Shown here piece after piece: positions 5,452 to 19,274 of a DNA stretch of 32,000 bases; position 1 is the first letter of the stretch; every line of letters starts with the position of its first letter. The DNA comes from Microcystis aeruginosa NIES-843 (GTDB lineage: Bacteria > Cyanobacteriota > Cyanobacteriia > Cyanobacteriales > Microcystaceae), in NCBI RefSeq assembly GCF_000010625.1, contig NC_010296.1:2160001-2192000 (forward strand), given 5' to 3'. Below the pieces are notes generated by a model, which was not told the DNA's origin, made no database searches, and worked only from the letters and a program-made list of their open reading frames with translations. Both the position numbers and the translations under genes were made by a program.

Positions 5452-6315
5452 ATGGGAGAATGGTTAGATTTTACCGATGAAGTGGTCACTGTTAATGGCA
5501 AAGGTGAGGAAATTAAACGGGAAAAAGTCACTAATCGAGGTTATAAATATTTTTTAAGCAAAAAAACCTTTTTAGAAATGATTTCTATCCCTAGCGGTCA
5601 ATACCTCATCGGTGCGCCCAAAAGCGAGTTAGGCTGGAAATTGAGTCAAAGTCCCCAATCTCCGGTTAATATTCAGGCTTTTTGTCTGAGTCGCTACCCA
5701 ATTACCCAACGACAATGGCGCGAGGTGGCAAAATTAGAACCGGTAAATATTGAACTTAATCCCTATCCGGCCCATTTTGAAGGTTATGATCGCCCAGTAG
5801 AACAAATTAACTGGTGGGAAGCGGTGGAATTTTGCGATCGCCTATCCCGTCTCACGGGACTCAATTATCGTTTACCCGCAGAAAAAGAATGGGAATACGC
5901 TTGTCGGGGAGGAACATCAACCCCTTTTCACTTCGGCCCGACAATTTCCACTGATTTAGCCAACTATTCCGGGGTGGACTGGGATTATGGCGGCAAAGTG
6001 TGCAGTTCTGGTCGTTATGGGGAAGGTCGCCTAGGTTGCGATCGCAGGGAAACCACACCAGTGGGAATGTTTGCCGTCGCTAACCCTTTCGGACTCTACG
6101 ATCTGCACGGAAATGTCAGGGAATGGTGTGCAGATTACTGGCGCGATAACTACGAAGCAGCCACAATAGAAGATAGGGACAGACGAGTTTTACGCGGCGG
6201 TTCTTGGAATGACGGCCCTAACAAATGTCGCTCGGCCTACCGAGTCAAATTTATGGCTACTGCTGGACTCTACGATATCGGTTTTCGTGTCGTTAGCGAT
6301 AATTCTCCTTTATAG
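5452..6315 (+). CDS. Formylglycine-generating-enzyme (FGE-sulfatase/SUMF1) domain protein, stand-alone
   Basis: RLPAEKEWEYACRGGT, LYDLHGNVREWCADYW and RVLRGGSWNDGPNKCRSAYR are hallmark FGE-sulfatase domain motifs. An in-frame stop at 5431 excludes a longer N-terminus. Confidence 0.85.
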   Translation: MGEWLDFTDEVVTVNGKGEEIKREKVTNRGYKYFLSKKTFLEMISIPSGQYLIGAPKSELGWKLSQSPQSPVNIQAFCLSRYPITQRQWREVAKLEPVNIELNPYPAHFEGYDRPVEQINWWEAVEFCDRLSRLTGLNYRLPAEKEWEYACRGGTSTPFHFGPTISTDLANYSGVDWDYGGKVCSSGRYGEGRLGCDRRETTPVGMFAVANPFGLYDLHGNVREWCADYWRDNYEAATIEDRDRRVLRGGSWNDGPNKCRSAYRVKFMATAGLYDIGFRVVSDNSPL

Positions 6316-6752: not shown

Positions 6753-7352
6753 ATGATTGCTAACTTTGACCATAACTATCTTTCCCCGGAAGATTATTTA
6801 GCAACGGAGAGAATAGCCAAGGATAAACACGAATATATTCGCGGTCAAACCTACGCCATGGCTGGTGCAAGTAAAGCCCACGGTATGATTATTATCAACT
6901 TAGCCACACTTTTAAAAAACCGGCTGCGGGGTAGTGGTTGTCTTGTCTATGCCACAGATATGAAAGTTCGTCTAGAAATAGCTAATAGTTATTTTTATCC
7001 CGATCTTGTGGTCACTTGCGACTCGCGAGATAATCAGTCTTTCTCGGAAGATTTTATCCGTTATCCGCGCTTGATTGTAGAAGTATTATCCCCCACTACG
7101 GCTGCCTTTGCTCGCAACGCGCTCGCGAAGCGAGATCGGGGTGATAAATTTGCCGACTATCGTTCCCTTGAAACTTTAGAAGAATACGTTCTTATCAGTC
7201 AAGAACGCATCAGTGTGGATTGTTTTCGTCGCAATGACGAAGGATTCTGGGTTCTTTATCCCTACAGCAAAGGAGCAGATATTTATCTAGCTAGTATCGA
7301 TTTTCACTGTGCGATCGAATCTTTATACGAAGATATAACAGAAATCCGTTAA
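6753..7352 (+). CDS. Uma2 family (DUF820) restriction-endonuclease-fold protein
   Basis: EYIRGQTYAMAGASKAHG, YPDLVVTCD, LIVEVLSPTT, DRGDKFADYR..LEEYVLISQ follow the Uma2 PD-(D/E)xK pattern common in cyanobacteria. Confidence 0.8.
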   Translation: MIANFDHNYLSPEDYLATERIAKDKHEYIRGQTYAMAGASKAHGMIIINLATLLKNRLRGSGCLVYATDMKVRLEIANSYFYPDLVVTCDSRDNQSFSEDFIRYPRLIVEVLSPTTAAFARNALAKRDRGDKFADYRSLETLEEYVLISQERISVDCFRRNDEGFWVLYPYSKGADIYLASIDFHCAIESLYEDITEIR

Positions 7353-8286: not shown

Positions 8287-9231
8287 TTATTTCAAATAAG
8301 AACGAGACACTAGGCGACACAATAAGTACGAATAATTTCATCAAGGGGTGTCCCCACAGGAGCATACATTCTTGCCCTCTTTAATGCACTAAAATCATGT
8401 TCGATATCATTTAAATCAGGAGAGTATTTTGGCAAAAACACGACCTGATGACCTGCTTCCTCTACCAGTTGTTTAATGACTGTCTTCCGATGAATTGGTG
8501 CATTATCCATAATTAATACTGATGTTATGGTTAGAGAGGGCAACAAATATAAAGATAACCACCCTTCAAAACCTTCGGCATTCAGGCTTCTCGTAAATAC
8601 CATCGGTGCAATAAAGTCTTTTTTTCCCTTTCTTCTACCAGCGACAAGGTTCTCTCTTTTTCCTCGTTTTCCTTGTCTATCTCCAAAGACTTTCTTCCCT
8701 TTTTTTGACCAAGCATAAAAACAGGCTTGAAATTCTTCAAACCCTGACTCATCAATAAATACAAGGCTTTCACTTCCATATATTTTAATCAATTCTCTCA
8801 GCACTCTGTAGTATTTCATTCTTTCTTCTCGGTTTCTTTCTCTATAACGAAGTTCCTTCTTTTTTCTGGTAACTTTCATGTTTTTTAAGGCATAGCAAAT
8901 GGCACTTGGTCTCACTCCAAATTTCTCGGCTCTGTCTCTTAATCTTGCCTCGGGATTTTCTTGGACATCTTTTGACAGTGCTTTCCAGTCCAGCTTTCTC
9001 TGACGGTGTTTTACCTTTGTTGCTTCCAGTTTTTCCCTACCTAGCCATCTATATATCGTCGCTCTTCCTATATTAAATAGAGCGGCGGCTTTGGTTATGC
9101 TTCCCCCATTCTCTACATAATCGATTACTTTTTTTCTCAAGTCTAGGCTATAAGACATTTTTCTGTATGGGTTGCTCGTTTCTCTTGATTTTACCTTATT
9201 TTTCCCTCGTCTCACACTTATTTGAAATGAC
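8286..9231 (-). mobile_element. IS630-family insertion sequence, apparently intact, flanked by a TA target duplication
   Basis: Terminal inverted repeats GTTATTTCAAATAAGAACGAGAC (8286-) and GTCATTTCAAATAAGTGTGAGAC (reverse complement of -9231). TA lies at 8284-8285 and 9232-9233. It contains a single DDE transposase ORF. Confidence 0.85.
8310..9215 (-). CDS. IS630-family DDE transposase
   Basis: N-terminal HTH (SITKAAALFNIGRATIYRW). Catalytic triad context VFIDESGF, LIMDNAPIHR, YSPDLNDIEHDF (DD35E-type spacing). The likely true start is MSYSLDL at 9158; the ORF track extension runs into the terminal repeat. Confidence 0.9.
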   Translation of the reverse strand: MRRGKNKVKSRETSNPYRKMSYSLDLRKKVIDYVENGGSITKAAALFNIGRATIYRWLGREKLEATKVKHRQRKLDWKALSKDVQENPEARLRDRAEKFGVRPSAICYALKNMKVTRKKKELRYRERNREERMKYYRVLRELIKIYGSESLVFIDESGFEEFQACFYAWSKKGKKVFGDRQGKRGKRENLVAGRRKGKKDFIAPMVFTRSLNAEGFEGWLSLYLLPSLTITSVLIMDNAPIHRKTVIKQLVEEAGHQVVFLPKYSPDLNDIEHDFSALKRARMYAPVGTPLDEIIRTYCVA

Positions 9232-13289: not shown

Positions 13290-15353
13290 ATGCCTCAATA
13301 TACTACTAAACAAGCAACGGAAAACCCTGTTGTGTCCGACCAGTCCGCCAAGAATCCCTTTTCACTATTTGGTCAATTTTGGGAAAGCCTAAAAATTGTC
13401 GCTCAACCCTATTGGTATCCAACGGAGTTAAATGGACGTGCCTTTGGAGATGTGATCATTTCTTGGGGGATGTCAGCTTTGATTCTTTTAAGTATCTTGG
13501 CAACGGTGGGGGTAGAAGCTTTTAGTAGCTACTGGAATCGTTATGTACTCGACATTATTATTGAAGATAGAGATCTTTCTAAATATCTAAATACGCTGTG
13601 GTTATCCAGTTTGTTGATTATATTAACAACGGGGTTATTTGCTTTTTCTCAATTTATTCGTCGCAAAGTAGCCTTAGATTGGTATAAGTGGTTAACGAAA
13701 CAAACCGTCAAAAAATATCTCAATTATCGCGCTTATTATAACATTGATTTTACCTCAGCTTTAAAAAATCCCGATCAAAGATTATCTCAAGAAATTGAAC
13801 CAATTACGACCATGACCCTAAGGTTGTTAATTACCTTCGTGGAAAAAGGGTTACAAATGATTACTTTTGCGATTATTCTTTGGACAATTTCTCGGCAAAT
13901 TGCGGTTTATCTAATAATTTATACGATCGCAGGAAATTTCATAGCAATTTATCTAACTCAAGAATTAAACAAGATTAATCAATCTGAGCTTAATAATAAA
14001 GCTGATTATAATTATGCTTTAACCCATGTGCGTAACCACGCCGAATCCATTGCTTTTTTTCAGGGAGAAGAGCAGGAAGAAAAAATCATTGAAGGCCGTT
14101 TTGAACGGGTTATTCAAAGCTCGGAAAAACTGATAAATTGGGAACGGTTTAATAATCTTTTTAATCGAGGTTATCAGTCAGCGATTAGTGTATTTTCAAT
14201 GTTTATTTTGACCCCGATGTTTATTAAAAATGAAATCGATTATGGGGAAATAAGTCAAGCGAGTTTATGCTGTTTCCTTTTTTCTAATGCCTTGGGACAA
14301 TTAATTACTGAATGGGGAACATCGGGTAAAGTTTCAAGTTATATTGAACGGTTAGCTACCTTGACAGATGCCTTAAAAGTTGCCAGTGAAGAGCCGAAAA
14401 ACTTAAGTCGTATTATCACCCTGGAAGATAATCGTCTAGCTTTTGAAAATTTTACCCTACAAACTCCCGATTATGAAAAGGTAATTGTGGAGAATTTATC
14501 GGTTTCTGTCCCTTTGGGAGAAAGCCTACTGATTATTGGCCCCAGTGGTCGAGGAAAAAGTTCCTTGTTACGAGCAATCGCCGGTTTATGGAAAGCAGGT
14601 AGCGGCCGTTTAGTGCGTCCTCCTTTAGCTAAAATGTTATTTTTGCCCCAACGTCCTTATATTATCCTTGGCAGTTTACGCCAGCAATTACTTTATCCCC
14701 ATACCAATGATCAGGTGAGCGATGAAGAATTAGAAAATATCTTAAAAAAAGTCAACCTGCAACATTTATTAACTGACAAAAATAGCTTAGATAAAGAAGT
14801 CAACTGGGAACAAATTTTATCTCTGGGAGAACAACAAAGATTAGCTTTTGCTCGACTATTAATCACTAAACCTACCTTTACTATCTTAGATGAAGCAACT
14901 AGCGCTTTAGATTTGGCCAATGAAGCCAGCTTATATCAGCAATTACAGGAAAGTGAAACCACTTTTATTAGTGTTGGTCATCGGGAAAGTTTATTTAATT
15001 ATCATCGATGGGTCTTAGAGTTAACAGAAAATTCCCATTGGCAGCTGTCAACTGTAGAAGATTATCAGCGCAAAAAAGTGAATAACCTAGTGATGATGTC
15101 AAAAAAATCAGAAAATTTTTCGGCGGTAAAAATAGAGACTTTGTCTGAGGTTAAAACTGAGCATGATGCGGAAATTGCAGGAGTTTCTGAAATAGCCGAA
15201 GGTTTGTCCCATCAACAAATGCAGTCCCTAACTGATTATTCTTTAAGTAGCGTTCGTAATCGAGCCAGTTTAGGTAAAATCATTACTGCCAAAGATGGTT
15301 TTAATTATCGTTACGATAAAGACCCAAAAACCTTAAAATGGGTGAGAATATAG
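13290..15353 (+). CDS. ABC transporter, fused permease/ATPase of the ABCD / SbmA-BacA-like type (ABC membrane 2); positional candidate for microviridin transporter MdnE
   Basis: Walker A GPSGRGKSS, signature LSLGEQQRLAFARL, Walker B FTILDEATSALD. The TMD ends with NHAESIAFFQGEEQE, like the ABCD-family EEIAFYGG motif. A tail of about 90 aa beyond the NBD has no recognisable motif. Confidence 0.85.
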   Translation: MPQYTTKQATENPVVSDQSAKNPFSLFGQFWESLKIVAQPYWYPTELNGRAFGDVIISWGMSALILLSILATVGVEAFSSYWNRYVLDIIIEDRDLSKYLNTLWLSSLLIILTTGLFAFSQFIRRKVALDWYKWLTKQTVKKYLNYRAYYNIDFTSALKNPDQRLSQEIEPITTMTLRLLITFVEKGLQMITFAIILWTISRQIAVYLIIYTIAGNFIAIYLTQELNKINQSELNNKADYNYALTHVRNHAESIAFFQGEEQEEKIIEGRFERVIQSSEKLINWERFNNLFNRGYQSAISVFSMFILTPMFIKNEIDYGEISQASLCCFLFSNALGQLITEWGTSGKVSSYIERLATLTDALKVASEEPKNLSRIITLEDNRLAFENFTLQTPDYEKVIVENLSVSVPLGESLLIIGPSGRGKSSLLRAIAGLWKAGSGRLVRPPLAKMLFLPQRPYIILGSLRQQLLYPHTNDQVSDEELENILKKVNLQHLLTDKNSLDKEVNWEQILSLGEQQRLAFARLLITKPTFTILDEATSALDLANEASLYQQLQESETTFISVGHRESLFNYHRWVLELTENSHWQLSTVEDYQRKKVNNLVMMSKKSENFSAVKIETLSEVKTEHDAEIAGVSEIAEGLSHQQMQSLTDYSLSSVRNRASLGKIITAKDGFNYRYDKDPKTLKWVRI

Positions 15354-15499: not shown

Positions 15500-16033
15500 A
15501 TGAAAGCACTGGAAAAACTGGTGACGGAACGATTATATTTAGTCCCCTTCAAGCTTGAACTTCTCAAGGCCGCAATTATAGGTATCGATGAATTAGCAAC
15601 AATTTTGGGGGTAAAAGTTGCAGCTGACTGGGCCGAACAAGAGTTGATTCAAGCTTTCCCTGATATTGCGAATATTTTGCTGCAATTCCCCTTACAAAAT
15701 GAGTGGGGGTGGGGGAGTTTAATTATTCATCAAACAGAAAATACCCTTATTGGTCATGTGATGATCAAAATTATTCCTGATGTCACAGGTTTACCCACAG
15801 ATGCTGTAGAAATTGGCTATCAAGTAGCGCCGTTATATCGACGACAAGGCTACGCATCTGAGGCGACAAAAGCAATGATGGACTGGACACTTTCTCAACC
15901 TGGTATGCAAACAGTGACCGCTGGCTGCGCTCCCGATAATATAGCTTCAAAGCGAGTTTTAGAAAAAATAGGCATGGATCTGATAGAAGCACGAGAGAAA
16001 GTCTTGGTCTGGAAATTAAGTAGGGTTTGCTGA
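15500..16033 (+). CDS. mdnD: GNAT family N-acetyltransferase, microviridin N-acetyltransferase MdnD candidate
   Basis: GNAT motif A (YRRQGYASEATKAMMDW). RimJ/RimL-like N-terminus (TERLYLVPF). AGGAG RBS 9 nt upstream. Adjacent to mdnC. Confidence 0.75.
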   Translation: MKALEKLVTERLYLVPFKLELLKAAIIGIDELATILGVKVAADWAEQELIQAFPDIANILLQFPLQNEWGWGSLIIHQTENTLIGHVMIKIIPDVTGLPTDAVEIGYQVAPLYRRQGYASEATKAMMDWTLSQPGMQTVTAGCAPDNIASKRVLEKIGMDLIEAREKVLVWKLSRVC

Positions 16034-16296: not shown

Positions 16297-17271
16297 TTAT
16301 GAGTTAACTAGGATTTCAGCGATCGCCTGGGAGATAGGAAAATAAGGAGGATAAAGTTCTAGCCAGAAAAACTCGCCAACGGGATTAATTTCTAAAAAGA
16401 TATAACGTTCATCTGGTGTGACAATCATATCAATTGCACCATAATTAAGACCGAAATATTTCACTAATTCTAGTAGTTGTTTTTCAATAGTTTTCGGTAA
16501 ATCGTAGGGTTGCCATTGTTGATGGAGCGCTCTTCCCTCTTTTCGCCAATCGTAGATAGCACCGTCTAATTGTTGGGAATTAATCGCCGCCGTAAATATT
16601 TGTTCACCGACGATAGTGATGCGTAATTCCAAAGCTTTAGGAATGTTTTCCTGAAAAGTCATTGGACAAAATTGCAAACCTTCCAAATTATCTAGGTCTT
16701 CCTTTGTAACAGGACTGGTAAAAACAACCATTTCCTCTTGCTTGTCTCCATAAATAGCAAATTGAGAAAGCATTTTAGTCACAATTCCCGTCGCTTCAAA
16801 CTCCTGAGCAAATTGCTTGACAGCTTCAGGATTATTAGAAGTTAAAGTCCCCGGAATTAATAAACCTAATTGTTGCGCCACTTGTAACTGCAATTGTTTA
16901 TGATTGGCATGATCTACCTTAGCAATTGGATCAAGATGAAAGCCAGATAAACTAGCAATCATTCCTCGAATACTTAACCGACATTCCTTAAGAGAAGCTT
17001 CGCGAAATTGACTATCCATCCCATCGGGTAATTTTAGTCCGTATCTCATGCGTCGATACCAGACAGAAGAAACTTCTTTTAGCTCTAATTTTTGTTCTCC
17101 ATCGGTAATAATTCCGCCTTTTTGACCGCCTGAGTAAAGATCAACTTTCACCTCTGTAGGGAAGCGATCAGTATCAAAACGGAAGGCTTTTTTACCCATG
17201 GCTTCTATGGCTTTGATTACCAGAGGAATACTTTCATTATCGTGGCTAAAAGTAACAATTAAAACGGTCAT
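16297..17271 (-). CDS. mdnC: Microviridin ATP-grasp ligase MdnC (omega-ester / lactone-forming)
   Basis: ATP-grasp fold motifs (ELRITIVGEQIF, YDWR, YIFLEINPVGEF). From memory the sequence matches Microcystis MdnC, which starts MTVLIVTFS. That ATG at 17271 has an AAGGA RBS. The track ORF start at 17328 is an upstream extension overlapping mdnB. Confidence 0.9.
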   Translation of the reverse strand: MTVLIVTFSHDNESIPLVIKAIEAMGKKAFRFDTDRFPTEVKVDLYSGGQKGGIITDGEQKLELKEVSSVWYRRMRYGLKLPDGMDSQFREASLKECRLSIRGMIASLSGFHLDPIAKVDHANHKQLQLQVAQQLGLLIPGTLTSNNPEAVKQFAQEFEATGIVTKMLSQFAIYGDKQEEMVVFTSPVTKEDLDNLEGLQFCPMTFQENIPKALELRITIVGEQIFTAAINSQQLDGAIYDWRKEGRALHQQWQPYDLPKTIEKQLLELVKYFGLNYGAIDMIVTPDERYIFLEINPVGEFFWLELYPPYFPISQAIAEILVNS

Positions 17272-17324
17272 AGATTTCCTTGAAAACTTAATATTAACAA
17301 TTTTTTGAGCGCCAGCTTTGCCGA

Positions 17325-18305
17325 TCAACCGAAGACTAAAAAATCAGCGATCGCATTAGAAATAGGTAAATCTAAATCCCGTTCTAACATTCCCCACTCA
17401 CCACCCGGATTAACTTCTAAAAAAACGTATTCTCCCCCAGGAGTTAAGATAAAATCAAACGCCCCAAAATTCAACCCTAAATTAGCCATAAAAATCTGAA
17501 GTTGCTGCAATAGTGAATCAGGTAAAGTATGATGTTGCCAAGCACCCGGATCAATACCCGGTCTTCGCCAATCTACGGCAGAATTATTATACTGAGAAGA
17601 TTCTAAAGCTCCCACAAATGTCTGTCCATTAACCACGACAACTCTCAATTCTAATTGTTTGGGAATTTCCGCTTGAAAAACCATAGGACAATAGCGTAAA
17701 GATTCCGCTTCCTCAAGGTCTTCTGCTTTCACCCTACTGGTATAAAGAAAAAATTCCGGCGACTCCATACTTCTGGCGATCGCAGTTAACAATTTACTCA
17801 CCATTCTTCCCTGAACCTGGGAAAAAAACTCCCGGGCAGCATCAGGATTATTGGTAACTAAAGTGGGGGGGATAATCAAGCCAACTTCTGAGGCCAAACG
17901 AAGTTGTAATAACTTATTTTTAGCCCTCTCAATTTGCGCTAAATTATCTAACCAACGCGCTGACCTTAAACTATCCCAAAAACTAGCCAAAGTCGTCTGG
18001 GATTCTCGCACACAAGCCTCCCGAAACTGAGGATCTAAATCCGCTGTTATTTCAGGTTGCCAAATACGTCTTGTCCAAACAGATTGCACCTGTTCACTAT
18101 CAATAGATTGATGGTTATAGGTTAATTGATAAAAACTTTTTTTCCCATTAAATTGGGCTGCTAATTGAACCTCTAAGGGAAATTTATCGGTATCTAAGCG
18201 AAAAGGTGTGGCTCCTTTTTTTTCTATCGCCTCAGCCACGCGGTCAATCGTGAAAAAATCGCCGCTATGGGTCAACAATAAAACAACTTTAGGCGATTCT
18301 TTCAT
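17325..18305 (-). CDS. mdnB: Microviridin ATP-grasp ligase MdnB (omega-amide / lactam-forming)
   Basis: Paralogue of the downstream ATP-grasp (ELRVVVVNGQTF, VDWR, YVFLEVNPGGEW). First enzyme gene after the precursor, as in mdnABC. Confidence 0.9.
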   Translation of the reverse strand: MKESPKVVLLLTHSGDFFTIDRVAEAIEKKGATPFRLDTDKFPLEVQLAAQFNGKKSFYQLTYNHQSIDSEQVQSVWTRRIWQPEITADLDPQFREACVRESQTTLASFWDSLRSARWLDNLAQIERAKNKLLQLRLASEVGLIIPPTLVTNNPDAAREFFSQVQGRMVSKLLTAIARSMESPEFFLYTSRVKAEDLEEAESLRYCPMVFQAEIPKQLELRVVVVNGQTFVGALESSQYNNSAVDWRRPGIDPGAWQHHTLPDSLLQQLQIFMANLGLNFGAFDFILTPGGEYVFLEVNPGGEWGMLERDLDLPISNAIADFLVFG

Positions 18306-18583
18306 GTCAATTGCAAATCCCTATATTTTAACCCATTTTAAGGCTTTTGGGCGGATATTTATCGAGAAGAATCTCAATAAAAGGCGGAAAAAATTGCTGC
18401 TTTTGCTTAACTAATTGCAGTATTTGTTTTTTTCTTGAGTAATTACTAAAGTTACTTTACAGCACTTCTCAGGATCTCAACGTGCAGTTTTTTTGGCTGC
18501 GAGCCTTGCTTAGTGGAGCTTTTAGCTTTTTGTCTGTACGGTGTAATCAAGAAAAGTGCTGCAATTACTCAAGTGATCTGAGT

Positions 18584-18736
18584 TTAATAATCTTCCCAGT
18601 CAGAAGGGTATTTAAAGGTGCCCCCGTAGGTAGGCTCAGGGGAAGGAGACTTGATGGAAGATTCCTCTTTGCTTACGGACAAGAAACGAGCAAAGAAAGG
18701 AAGTGCTTTACCTTGTTGATCGTTGGGATATGCCAT
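18584..18736 (-). CDS. mdnA: Microviridin precursor peptide MdnA (50 aa); not present in the supplied ORF track
   Basis: The reverse complement of 18736..18584 reads ATG GCA TAT CCC ... GAT TAT TAA = MAYPNDQQGKALPFFARFLSVSKEESSIKSPSPEPTYGGTFKYPSDWEDY*. It has the PFFARFL leader recognition motif, the TxKYPSDWE(D/E) core and a GAGGA RBS 6-7 nt upstream. Confidence 0.93.
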   Translation of the reverse strand: MAYPNDQQGKALPFFARFLSVSKEESSIKSPSPEPTYGGTFKYPSDWEDY

Positions 18737-19274
18737 AGTTATTCCTCTGGTAATTTCGAGTGAATAGGTTTAATCACTCAGACAAAACTAACCACCTGCA
18801 ATAACCCCTGAAAGCTTTGCTGTGCATGGCTTTCAGAATTGGGATTGTGCAAATAATTTGCCTTTGTTTGGGTGATGGAAAACATCATAAGCACTAATCC
18901 GGCCAATGTCAAGCACTTAAGAACAATTTCTGCTAAATCCGACATTCAGCACATCTTCATATACTTGTATATGTTTTTACATTCCCCAAGATGTTTTAAC
19001 GAAAAACCTTGATTGTAGAAACTACTATTGAGAACATTTTCAATAATTGATTTTTTCTGAGAAAAAAATTGACAATTCTTCACCTTGATCAAAATCAATG
19101 ATTGTAGCTATAATCCTTACTGGACAAGGATTGTAAGCAATATATTGGTAAAAATTATTAATTGAATGTTAAGAAGTGCGGAAAGTGGGTTTCCCACTCT
19201 ACTAAATCTGCTCAAATATTAATTACCTAAGCAAAATTAATTATACATCTAAGCCGTCAGCTTTTTGCCGTGAT

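What the first reader, a model, noticed from the sequence alone, without database searches (positions are those of the whole stretch)
18584..18736. Unlisted 50-codon precursor gene mdnA hidden under a spurious antisense ORF
The ORF track shows only a 93-aa plus-strand ORF (18482..18763) here. The minus strand encodes MAYPNDQQGKALPFFARFLSVSKEESSIKSPSPEPTYGGTFKYPSDWEDY, with a GAGGA RBS. PFFARFL is the leader helix recognised by the ATP-grasp ligases. By analogy with microviridin B (Ac-FGTTLKYPSDWEEY, whose precursor has the same leader as I recall it), the predicted product is Ac-YGGTFKYPSDWEDY. Its cross-links would be the Thr4-Asp10 and Ser9-Glu12 esters and a Lys6-Asp13 amide, with Asp rather than the more common Glu at position 13. 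Phe5 is the residue that largely sets protease specificity and predicts a chymotrypsin or subtilisin-type target. I recall this core as microviridin L of strain NIES-843, but that must be verified.
Basis: partly seen in the sequence, partly recalled or inferred. Interest (0 to 1): 0.7.

Follow-up and report, generated by a model that had tools for sequence, protein, structure and literature searches.

The report
Known microviridin L precursor gene mdnA
The small minus-strand ORF is real, but it is the already annotated and experimentally studied precursor gene (mdnA) of the protease inhibitor microviridin L from Microcystis aeruginosa NIES-843, so the finding is correct but not new.

Summary
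Window 18584..18736 (-) encodes exactly the 50-aa peptide quoted, with GAGGA 6 nt before the ATG. It passes the curated cut-offs of both microviridin family models. It sits directly upstream of an MvdC-type (MdnB, amide) and an MvdD-type (MdnC, ester) ATP-grasp ligase. A GNAT acetyltransferase and an ABC transporter lie convergently beyond them.

The peptide is identical to BAG02233.1 / WP_012265555.1 / UniRef B0JH81 ("Microviridin", M. aeruginosa NIES-843). Three neighbouring proteins match NIES-843 records exactly, so the window is that genome or a near-identical one.

The core YGGTFKYPSDWEDY is listed in the literature as microviridin L of NIES-843. The computed mass of the acetylated peptide minus three waters is 1714.69 Da, against a published value of 1715.

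The 93-aa plus-strand ORF is in exact codon register with mdnA. It stays open only because mdnA uses no TTA, CTA or TCA codon, and it matches no family.

Four small corrections apply:
- The gene is unlisted only because of the ORF track's length cut-off.
- The closest natural analogue is microviridin A (one change, E13D), not B.
- Asp13 is not rare.
- The best measured target is subtilisin.

Verdict: already known, low interest.

The parts
18584..18736 (-). mdnA, the microviridin L precursor gene (50 codons plus TAA stop at 18584..18586)
   Evidence: Translation. PF12559 and NF033738 both above their cut-offs. Exact match to BAG02233.1 / WP_012265555.1 of M. aeruginosa NIES-843.
18629..18736 (-). 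Leader peptide, residues 1-36 (MAYPNDQQGKALPFFARFLSVSKEESSIKSPSPEPT). The PFFARFL recognition helix lies at 18680..18700 and the Pro-rich C-terminal end is SPSPEPT.
   Evidence: Motif located at 18700. The leader is identical in the microviridin B precursor P0028. Residues 1-33 are identical to chain P of 5IG9. The role of the motif comes from the review PMC7823629.
18587..18628 (-). Core peptide, residues 37-50, YGGTFKYPSDWEDY (microviridin L), with the TxKxPSD motif starting at 18619
   Evidence: Core listed as microviridin L / NIES 843 in PMC8310014 Table 2. Mass match. The N-terminal part of the core is the hypervariable cassette among Microcystis loci, with in-frame indels.
18743..18747 (-). 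Shine-Dalgarno GAGGA, 6 nt upstream of the ATG
   Evidence: Read directly. AGAGGAA is invariant in 9 Microcystis sequences.
18884..18912 (-). Promoter-like site TTGACA-17 nt-TATGAT (11 of 12 consensus matches), about 140 nt upstream of mdnA. Its function is inferred.
   Evidence: Consensus scan. The -35 hexamer is invariant, and the -10 hexamer is invariant except in L009 (TACGAT). No transcript data.
18306..18583 (-). Conserved, structured mdnA-mdnB intergenic region with long inverted repeats (18434-18444 / 18563-18573 and 18457-18487 / 18534-18564)
   Evidence: RNA fold -68.1 kcal/mol, z = -3.87. Inverted repeats. High conservation but no informative covariation. No Rfam match. No terminator-like site.
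17325..18305 (-). mdnB, an MvdC-family ATP-grasp ligase that forms the Lys-Asp/Glu lactam
   Evidence: TIGR04185 equivalog 534.9 bits against a cut-off of 425. PF21068. Exact match to BAG02232.1.
16297..17271 (-). mdnC, an MvdD-family ATP-grasp ligase that forms the two lactones. The likely start is the ATG at 17271; the mechanical ORF runs back to a TTG at 17328.
   Evidence: TIGR04184 equivalog 555.1 bits against a cut-off of 475. PDB 5IG9_A aligns from ORF residue 20, E = 6.5e-216.
15500..16033 (+). mdnD, the GNAT N-acetyltransferase that acetylates the core N-terminus
   Evidence: PF13302 and PF00583. Exact match to BAG02230.1. Role.
13290..15353 (+). mdnE, an ABC transporter without a C39 peptidase domain, proposed as a scaffold and possibly an exporter
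   Evidence: PF06472 and PF00005. Exact match to BAG02229.1. A cluster member is named 'microviridin synthetase E'. Role.
18482..18763 (+). 93-aa antisense shadow ORF, not a gene
   Evidence: Its codons are in exact register with mdnA (18584 - 18482 = 102). mdnA has no TTA, CTA or TCA codon. No Pfam or NCBIfam hit. The same antisense frame carries stops in 44 of 72 distinct mdnA-like genes.

Best explanation
This is mdnA of the microviridin L biosynthetic gene cluster of Microcystis aeruginosa NIES-843, a class I graspetide (RiPP) precursor.

Steps shown for this family in the literature and inferred here:
- The 50-aa prepeptide is translated from its own strong ribosome-binding site.
- The PFFARFL helix of the 36-aa leader docks onto the two ATP-grasp ligases.
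- MdnC (MvdD type) forms the Thr4-Asp10 and Ser9-Glu12 lactones.
- MdnB (MvdC type) then closes the Lys6-Asp13 lactam.
- A protease not encoded in the cluster removes the leader.
- MdnD acetylates Tyr1.
- MdnE stabilises the complex at the membrane.

The product, Ac-YGGTFKYPSDWEDY minus three waters (1714.69 Da), is a cage-like serine protease inhibitor. Residue 5 (Phe) occupies the protease S1 pocket. The published best target is subtilisin.

The overlapping 93-aa plus-strand ORF is a codon-register shadow of mdnA.
For: - Sequence and translation.
- Family models above their curated cut-offs.
- Exact identity to BAG02233.1 / WP_012265555.1 / B0JH81, named 'Microviridin' of NIES-843. MdnB, GNAT and ABC are exact matches to BAG02232, BAG02230 and BAG02229 on the 5,842,795-bp contig.
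- MdnB and MdnC are equivalog-level matches to MvdC and MvdD.
- A solved MdnC-MdnA complex, 5IG9, has a near-identical leader.
- The core is listed as microviridin L / NIES 843.
- Mass 1714.69 Da computed against 1715 published.
- Heterologous production from this cluster in E. coli is reported.
- Phe5 mutagenesis and a subtilisin IC50 of 5.8 uM are reported.
- Enzyme roles come from the review.
- The sense-frame motifs PFFARFL and TxKxPSD are conserved across cyanobacteria, Acidobacteriota, Planctomycetota and myxobacteria next to MdnB homologues.
- The same FtsW-mdnA-B-C / D-E layout occurs in four other Microcystis genomes.
Against: - Nothing in the sequence argues against it.
- The primary papers (Ziemert 2010, Weiz 2011, Li 2016) could not be read here. 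The Lys6-Asp13 linkage and native production therefore rest on reviews, on analogy with microviridin A, and on my recollection.
- No transcript data were examined. The promoter call is only a consensus match.
- The leader peptidase for the Microcystis-type leader is still unknown, and no candidate lies next to the cluster.
Confidence: 0.97

Rival explanations
1. The plus-strand 93-aa ORF (18482..18763) is the real gene, and the minus-strand peptide is incidental.
For: It is the longer ORF. The antisense frame stays stop-free over mdnA in all 12 Microcystis MAYPN-type loci examined. Given the local codon usage (61% of Leu codons are TTA or CTA), the chance of this is only about 0.08.
Against: It has no family match. 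Its codons are in exact register with mdnA, so its openness follows from just 2 Leu and 7 Ser codon choices. The same frame is interrupted in 44 of 72 distinct mdnA-like genes, while the sense motifs are conserved across phyla. The minus-strand peptide is a deposited and experimentally exploited protein.
Confidence: 0.01
2. mdnA is intact but silent (cryptic) in the native strain, so the peptide is made only on heterologous expression.
For: The production reports found here are mostly from E. coli. I recall the original paper speaking of 'cryptic' variants. Core-deleted alleles exist in nature.
Against: The review states that microviridin L was detected in NIES-843. The promoter-like site, ribosome-binding site and all five genes are intact and conserved. 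The exact allele recurs on 7 metagenome contigs.
Confidence: 0.02

Closest known systems
Microviridin L precursor MdnA of M. aeruginosa NIES-843 (BAG02233.1 / WP_012265555.1 / UniRef100_B0JH81)
   Same: Identical over all 50 residues. The neighbouring proteins are also identical.
   Different: Nothing. It is the same gene.
Microviridin A precursor of Microcystis viridis NIES-102 (P0029, UniRef D5GUY9; product Ac-YGGTFKYPSDWEEY)
   Same: Identical leader, and 13 of 14 core residues are the same. It has the same tricyclic topology.
   Different: Glu13 instead of Asp13, so the lactam ring has one more methylene. Mass 1729.7 against 1715.
Microviridin B precursor of M. aeruginosa NIES-298 (P0028, UniRef B2G3C3; Ac-FGTTLKYPSDWEEY)
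   Same: Identical 36-aa leader and the same KYPSDWE motif.
   Different: Four core positions differ (F1Y, T3G, L5F, E13D). Leu5 goes with elastase-type inhibition: the review links microviridin B and the F5L mutant of microviridin L to elastase inhibition.
MdnA of M. aeruginosa MRC (microviridin J) in complex with MdnC, PDB 5IG9
   Same: Leader residues 1-33 are identical. MdnC matches at E = 6.5e-216.
   Different: The core is ISTRKYPSDWEEW (13 residues, with Arg5, which inhibits trypsin).

Membership tests
Microviridin / graspetide class I precursor (MdnA/MvdE) | Matches the curated family HMMs above their cut-offs | tested here: met
   PF12559 31.9 bits against 21. NF033738 36.9 bits against 26.
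Microviridin / graspetide class I precursor (MdnA/MvdE) | PFFARFL recognition motif in the leader | tested here: met
   Residues 13-19, window 18680..18700.
Microviridin / graspetide class I precursor (MdnA/MvdE) | Single C-terminal core with TxKxPSDx(E/D)(D/E) | tested here: met
   The core carries TFKYPSDWED and there is only one such motif in the window.
Microviridin / graspetide class I precursor (MdnA/MvdE) | Adjacent pair of ATP-grasp ligases, one MvdC type (amide) and one MvdD type (ester) | tested here: met
   TIGR04185 534.9 bits against 425, and TIGR04184 555.1 bits against 475, for the two ORFs immediately downstream.
Microviridin / graspetide class I precursor (MdnA/MvdE) | GNAT acetyltransferase and ABC transporter in the cluster (Microcystis/Planktothrix type) | tested here: met
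   The layout is shared with L009, L012, L013 and L019.
Microviridin L specifically | Core sequence YGGTFKYPSDWEDY from strain NIES-843 | tested here: met
   Exact protein identity to the NIES-843 record. The core is listed as microviridin L.
Microviridin L specifically | Mature product is N-acetylated and tricyclic, with a mass of about 1715 Da | not testable with these tools
   The computed 1714.69 Da agrees with the 1715 tabulated in PMC7823629. No chemistry can be done here.
Microviridin L specifically | Lys6-Asp13 lactam, Thr4-Asp10 lactone and Ser9-Glu12 lactone | not testable with these tools
   Inferred from the microviridin A topology described and from the enzyme roles. The primary NMR paper is not held.

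The most novel reading that the evidence does not exclude
The conserved 278-nt mdnA-mdnB intergenic region (18306..18583, minus strand) folds into a long, unusually stable stem. This stem could be an undescribed cis-acting RNA element. It might be a processing or stability site, or a partial attenuator, that uncouples the abundance of the precursor mRNA from that of the ligase mRNAs in Microcystis mdn operons. The mdnA gene itself offers no novelty.
Probability: 0.15. Interest if true: 0.3.

Novelty: already known. Interest (0 to 1): 0.08.

Why it matters
The result matters mainly as a check on the scan. A tool-less reader recovered a real 50-codon RiPP precursor that a length-filtered ORF track missed, and named the product correctly. 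It shows that short precursor genes hide under longer antisense shadow ORFs. Biologically it adds nothing new. Microviridin L, its gene cluster, its heterologous production and the role of Phe5 in specificity have been published since 2010-2014. The remaining open question for this subfamily is which protease removes the Pro-rich Microcystis-type leader, and this window does not address it.

Tried and rejected
- **Primary papers.** I tried to read Ziemert 2010 (DOI and PMC2876452), Gatte-Picchi 2014 (PMC3911057) and Li 2016 (PMC5117808). None is held. A full-text search for the core as a one-letter string found nothing. The confirmation came instead from a table in PMC8310014.
- **Antisense ORF in close relatives.** I tested whether stops break the antisense ORF in close relatives. 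They do not: it stays open in all Microcystis MAYPN-type loci, so that test was uninformative. The codon-register argument and the deeper homologues settled the question.
- **Terminator or known RNA family downstream of mdnA.** I found none. Covariation in the intergenic stem is uninformative because the stem is invariant in the seven loci compared.
- **Second precursor gene in the window.** None is present.
- **Leader peptidase near the cluster.** The neighbours are FtsW/RodA, an Mrp/ParA-type Fe-S protein, MOSC, glycosyltransferases, an amidase, an O-antigen-ligase-like protein, an FAD oxidoreductase and an IS630 transposase. None is a convincing candidate.
- **The 55-aa ORF at 18778..18945 (-).** I rejected it as a gene. 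It overlaps the promoter-like site and carries 5-nt and 11-nt indels among Microcystis loci.

Full report
**Observation.** The minus strand of window 18584..18736 reads ATG...TAA and translates to MAYPNDQQGKALPFFARFLSVSKEESSIKSPSPEPTYGGTFKYPSDWEDY. The mechanical ORF list shows it as a 50-aa ATG ORF once the length threshold is lowered. It also shows the 93-aa GTG ORF at 18482..18763 on the plus strand. GAGGA lies at 18747..18743, 6 nt before the start codon.

**What it is.** The peptide scores above the curated cut-offs of both microviridin family models. Pfam PF12559 Inhibitor_I10 gives 31.9 bits against 21. NCBIfam NF033738 'microviridin/marinostatin family tricyclic proteinase inhibitor' gives 36.9 bits against 26.

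The two ORFs immediately downstream on the same strand are equivalog-level matches to the two ATP-grasp maturases:
- 17325..18305 matches MvdC/MdnB (TIGR04185, 534.9 bits against 425).
- 16297..17271 matches MvdD/MdnC (TIGR04184, 555.1 bits against 475).

The mechanical mdnC ORF starts at a TTG at 17328. The solved MdnC structure 5IG9_A aligns from ORF residue 20 (E = 6.5e-216), so the ATG at 17271 is the likely start.

Two further genes lie convergently on the plus strand. One is a GNAT acetyltransferase (15500..16033). The other is an ABC transporter without a peptidase domain (13290..15353). Together these make the canonical mdnA-E set.

**Provenance.** An exact-sequence look-up shows that the 50-aa peptide is BAG02233.1 / WP_012265555.1 / UniRef100_B0JH81, named 'Microviridin', from Microcystis aeruginosa NIES-843. 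MdnB, the GNAT and the ABC transporter are exact matches to BAG02232.1, BAG02230.1 and BAG02229.1, on a contig of 5,842,795 bp. The window is therefore that genome or a near-identical one, and the gene is annotated in public records. The same allele also occurs on seven metagenome contigs.

**Product.**
- PMC8310014 Table 2 lists both 'M. aeruginosa NIES 843' and 'Microviridin L' as Y-G-G-T-F-KYPSD-W-E-D-Y.
- I computed 1714.69 Da (monoisotopic) for the N-acetylated core minus three waters. The review PMC7823629 tabulates microviridin L of NIES-843 at 1715.
- The review also reports expression of the cluster from a fosmid in E. coli. Wild-type microviridin L inhibits subtilisin best (IC50 5.8 uM). 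Changing Phe5 re-targets it: F5L to elastase, F5R to trypsin, F5Y to chymotrypsin, and F5M gives 0.09 uM on subtilisin.
- Other reviews list the same heterologous production.

**Mechanism.** This paragraph rests on the family literature, and its application to this locus is inferred. The PFFARFL helix of the leader is the recognition element for both ligases. MdnC/MvdD makes the two lactones first. MdnB/MvdC needs the bicyclic intermediate and makes the lactam. MdnD acetylates after leader removal. MdnE is proposed to scaffold the complex. PDB 5IG9 contains MdnC with an MdnA whose first 33 residues are identical to this leader. By analogy with microviridin A (Thr-Asp and Ser-Glu(I) esters, Lys-Glu(II) amide), the links here are Thr4-Asp10, Ser9-Glu12 and Lys6-Asp13. 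The leader peptidase for the Pro-rich Microcystis-type leader remains unidentified. No obvious candidate flanks the cluster.

- The microviridin B precursor (P0028, B2G3C3) does share the identical 36-aa leader, as recalled. The closest natural analogue, however, is microviridin A of M. viridis NIES-102 (P0029, core YGGTFKYPSDWEEY). It differs only by E13D.
- Asp at position 13 is not unusual. Among the precursors fetched, 14 carry W-E-D and 23 carry W-E-E. Microviridins E, I, SD1684 and 1777 also have Asp there.

**The antisense ORF.** Since 18584 - 18482 = 102, the plus-strand ORF's codons coincide exactly with mdnA's codons. In that register an antisense stop can arise only from a sense TTA, CTA or TCA codon. 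mdnA's two Leu codons are CTT and TTG, and its seven Ser codons are TCC, TCT or AGC. Local genes use TTA or CTA for 61% of Leu codons, so the chance of this is about 0.08, a mild coincidence.

The frame remains open in all closely related Microcystis alleles, which makes that comparison uninformative. Across 72 distinct mdnA-like genes found next to MdnB homologues in cyanobacteria, Acidobacteriota, Planctomycetota and myxobacteria, 44 carry stops in that frame. The sense-strand PFFARFL and TxKxPSD motifs persist throughout. The 93-aa product matches no family. It is a shadow ORF.

**Local anatomy.**
- A promoter-like TTGACA-17-TATGAT (11 of 12) lies at 18912..18884 (-). It is conserved in all Microcystis loci aligned, as is the ribosome-binding site.
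- In that alignment the leader DNA is nearly invariant.
- The first five or so core codons form a hypervariable cassette with in-frame 3-nt and 9-nt indels.
- The KYPSDWE codons and the downstream region are conserved again. This is the usual RiPP pattern.
- The FtsW / mdnA-B-C / mdnD-E / FAD-oxidoreductase layout, with D and E convergent, is shared by four other Microcystis genomes.

**Side observation.** The 278-nt mdnA-mdnB spacer is highly conserved and folds more stably than shuffles (-68.1 kcal/mol, z = -3.87). The fold is built around long inverted repeats. It has no U-tract and no Rfam match. The stem is invariant in seven loci, so covariation says nothing either way. A role in setting the precursor-to-enzyme transcript ratio is possible but untested.

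**Verdict.** The object is the known, annotated and experimentally characterised microviridin L precursor gene. Novelty: already known. Interest: low.

Noticed in passing
window 18306..18583 (-): The mdnA-mdnB intergenic region is highly conserved among Microcystis. It folds into a long stem (11-nt perfect arms at 18434-18444 / 18563-18573, and 31-nt arms at 74% complementarity at 18457-18487 / 18534-18564) with z = -3.87. It has no U-tract, no Rfam hit and no informative covariation.
   Followed up: partly
L008 8241-8430, L009 5911-6100, L010 8810-8999, L014 8241-8430; Snowella L015 and L016; remnant at L002 3562-3678: Several Microcystis and Snowella genomes carry a second, divergent precursor gene (core ...PVWTWKWPSDWEDS) about 260 nt downstream of mdnC. 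It resembles the second precursor of Planktothrix (L017, L018). It is absent from this window. L002 carries the same microviridin L allele and retains a partial copy.
   Followed up: partly
L011 about 5496-5760: A partial tandem duplication of the leader end plus the core (…KSPEEGRQTLKYPSDWEESF* followed by a second …SSIKSPEEGRQTLKYPSDWEEIP copy) lies inside an mdnA locus of a Microcystis MAG.
   Followed up: no
L088 1779-1904 and L089 4069-4218 (proteins P0021, P0022): These are naturally occurring mdnA alleles with the core deleted and a frameshift after the leader. In L088 mdnB is also split into 73-aa and 227-aa pieces, which suggests decaying clusters. Assembly artefacts in mixed populations are an alternative explanation.
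   Followed up: partly
window 18778..18945 (-): A 55-aa ORF just upstream of mdnA is called as a gene in some metagenome annotations. It overlaps the promoter-like site, has no family hit, and shows 5-nt and 11-nt indels among Microcystis loci. It is probably spurious.
   Followed up: yes
L028-L085 (many Pyrinomonadaceae / Acidobacteriota MAGs): Precursors with PFFARFLEGQ leaders and one to five TLKYPSD(R/G/S)DE cores sit next to MdnB homologues of about 50% identity. The family is abundant in soil Acidobacteriota, Planctomycetota and myxobacteria.
   Followed up: no
window 8310..9215 (-): An IS630-family transposase (HTH_Tnp_IS630 plus DDE_3) lies about 4 kb beyond the mdnE end of the cluster. 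A Uma2-family putative endonuclease is at 6753..7352.
   Followed up: no
window 16297..17328 (-): The mechanical mdnC ORF starts at a TTG that overlaps the mdnB stop codon. Alignment to PDB 5IG9_A and to TIGR04184 starts at ORF residues 20-22, so the true start is probably the ATG at 17271 (324 aa).
   Followed up: yes
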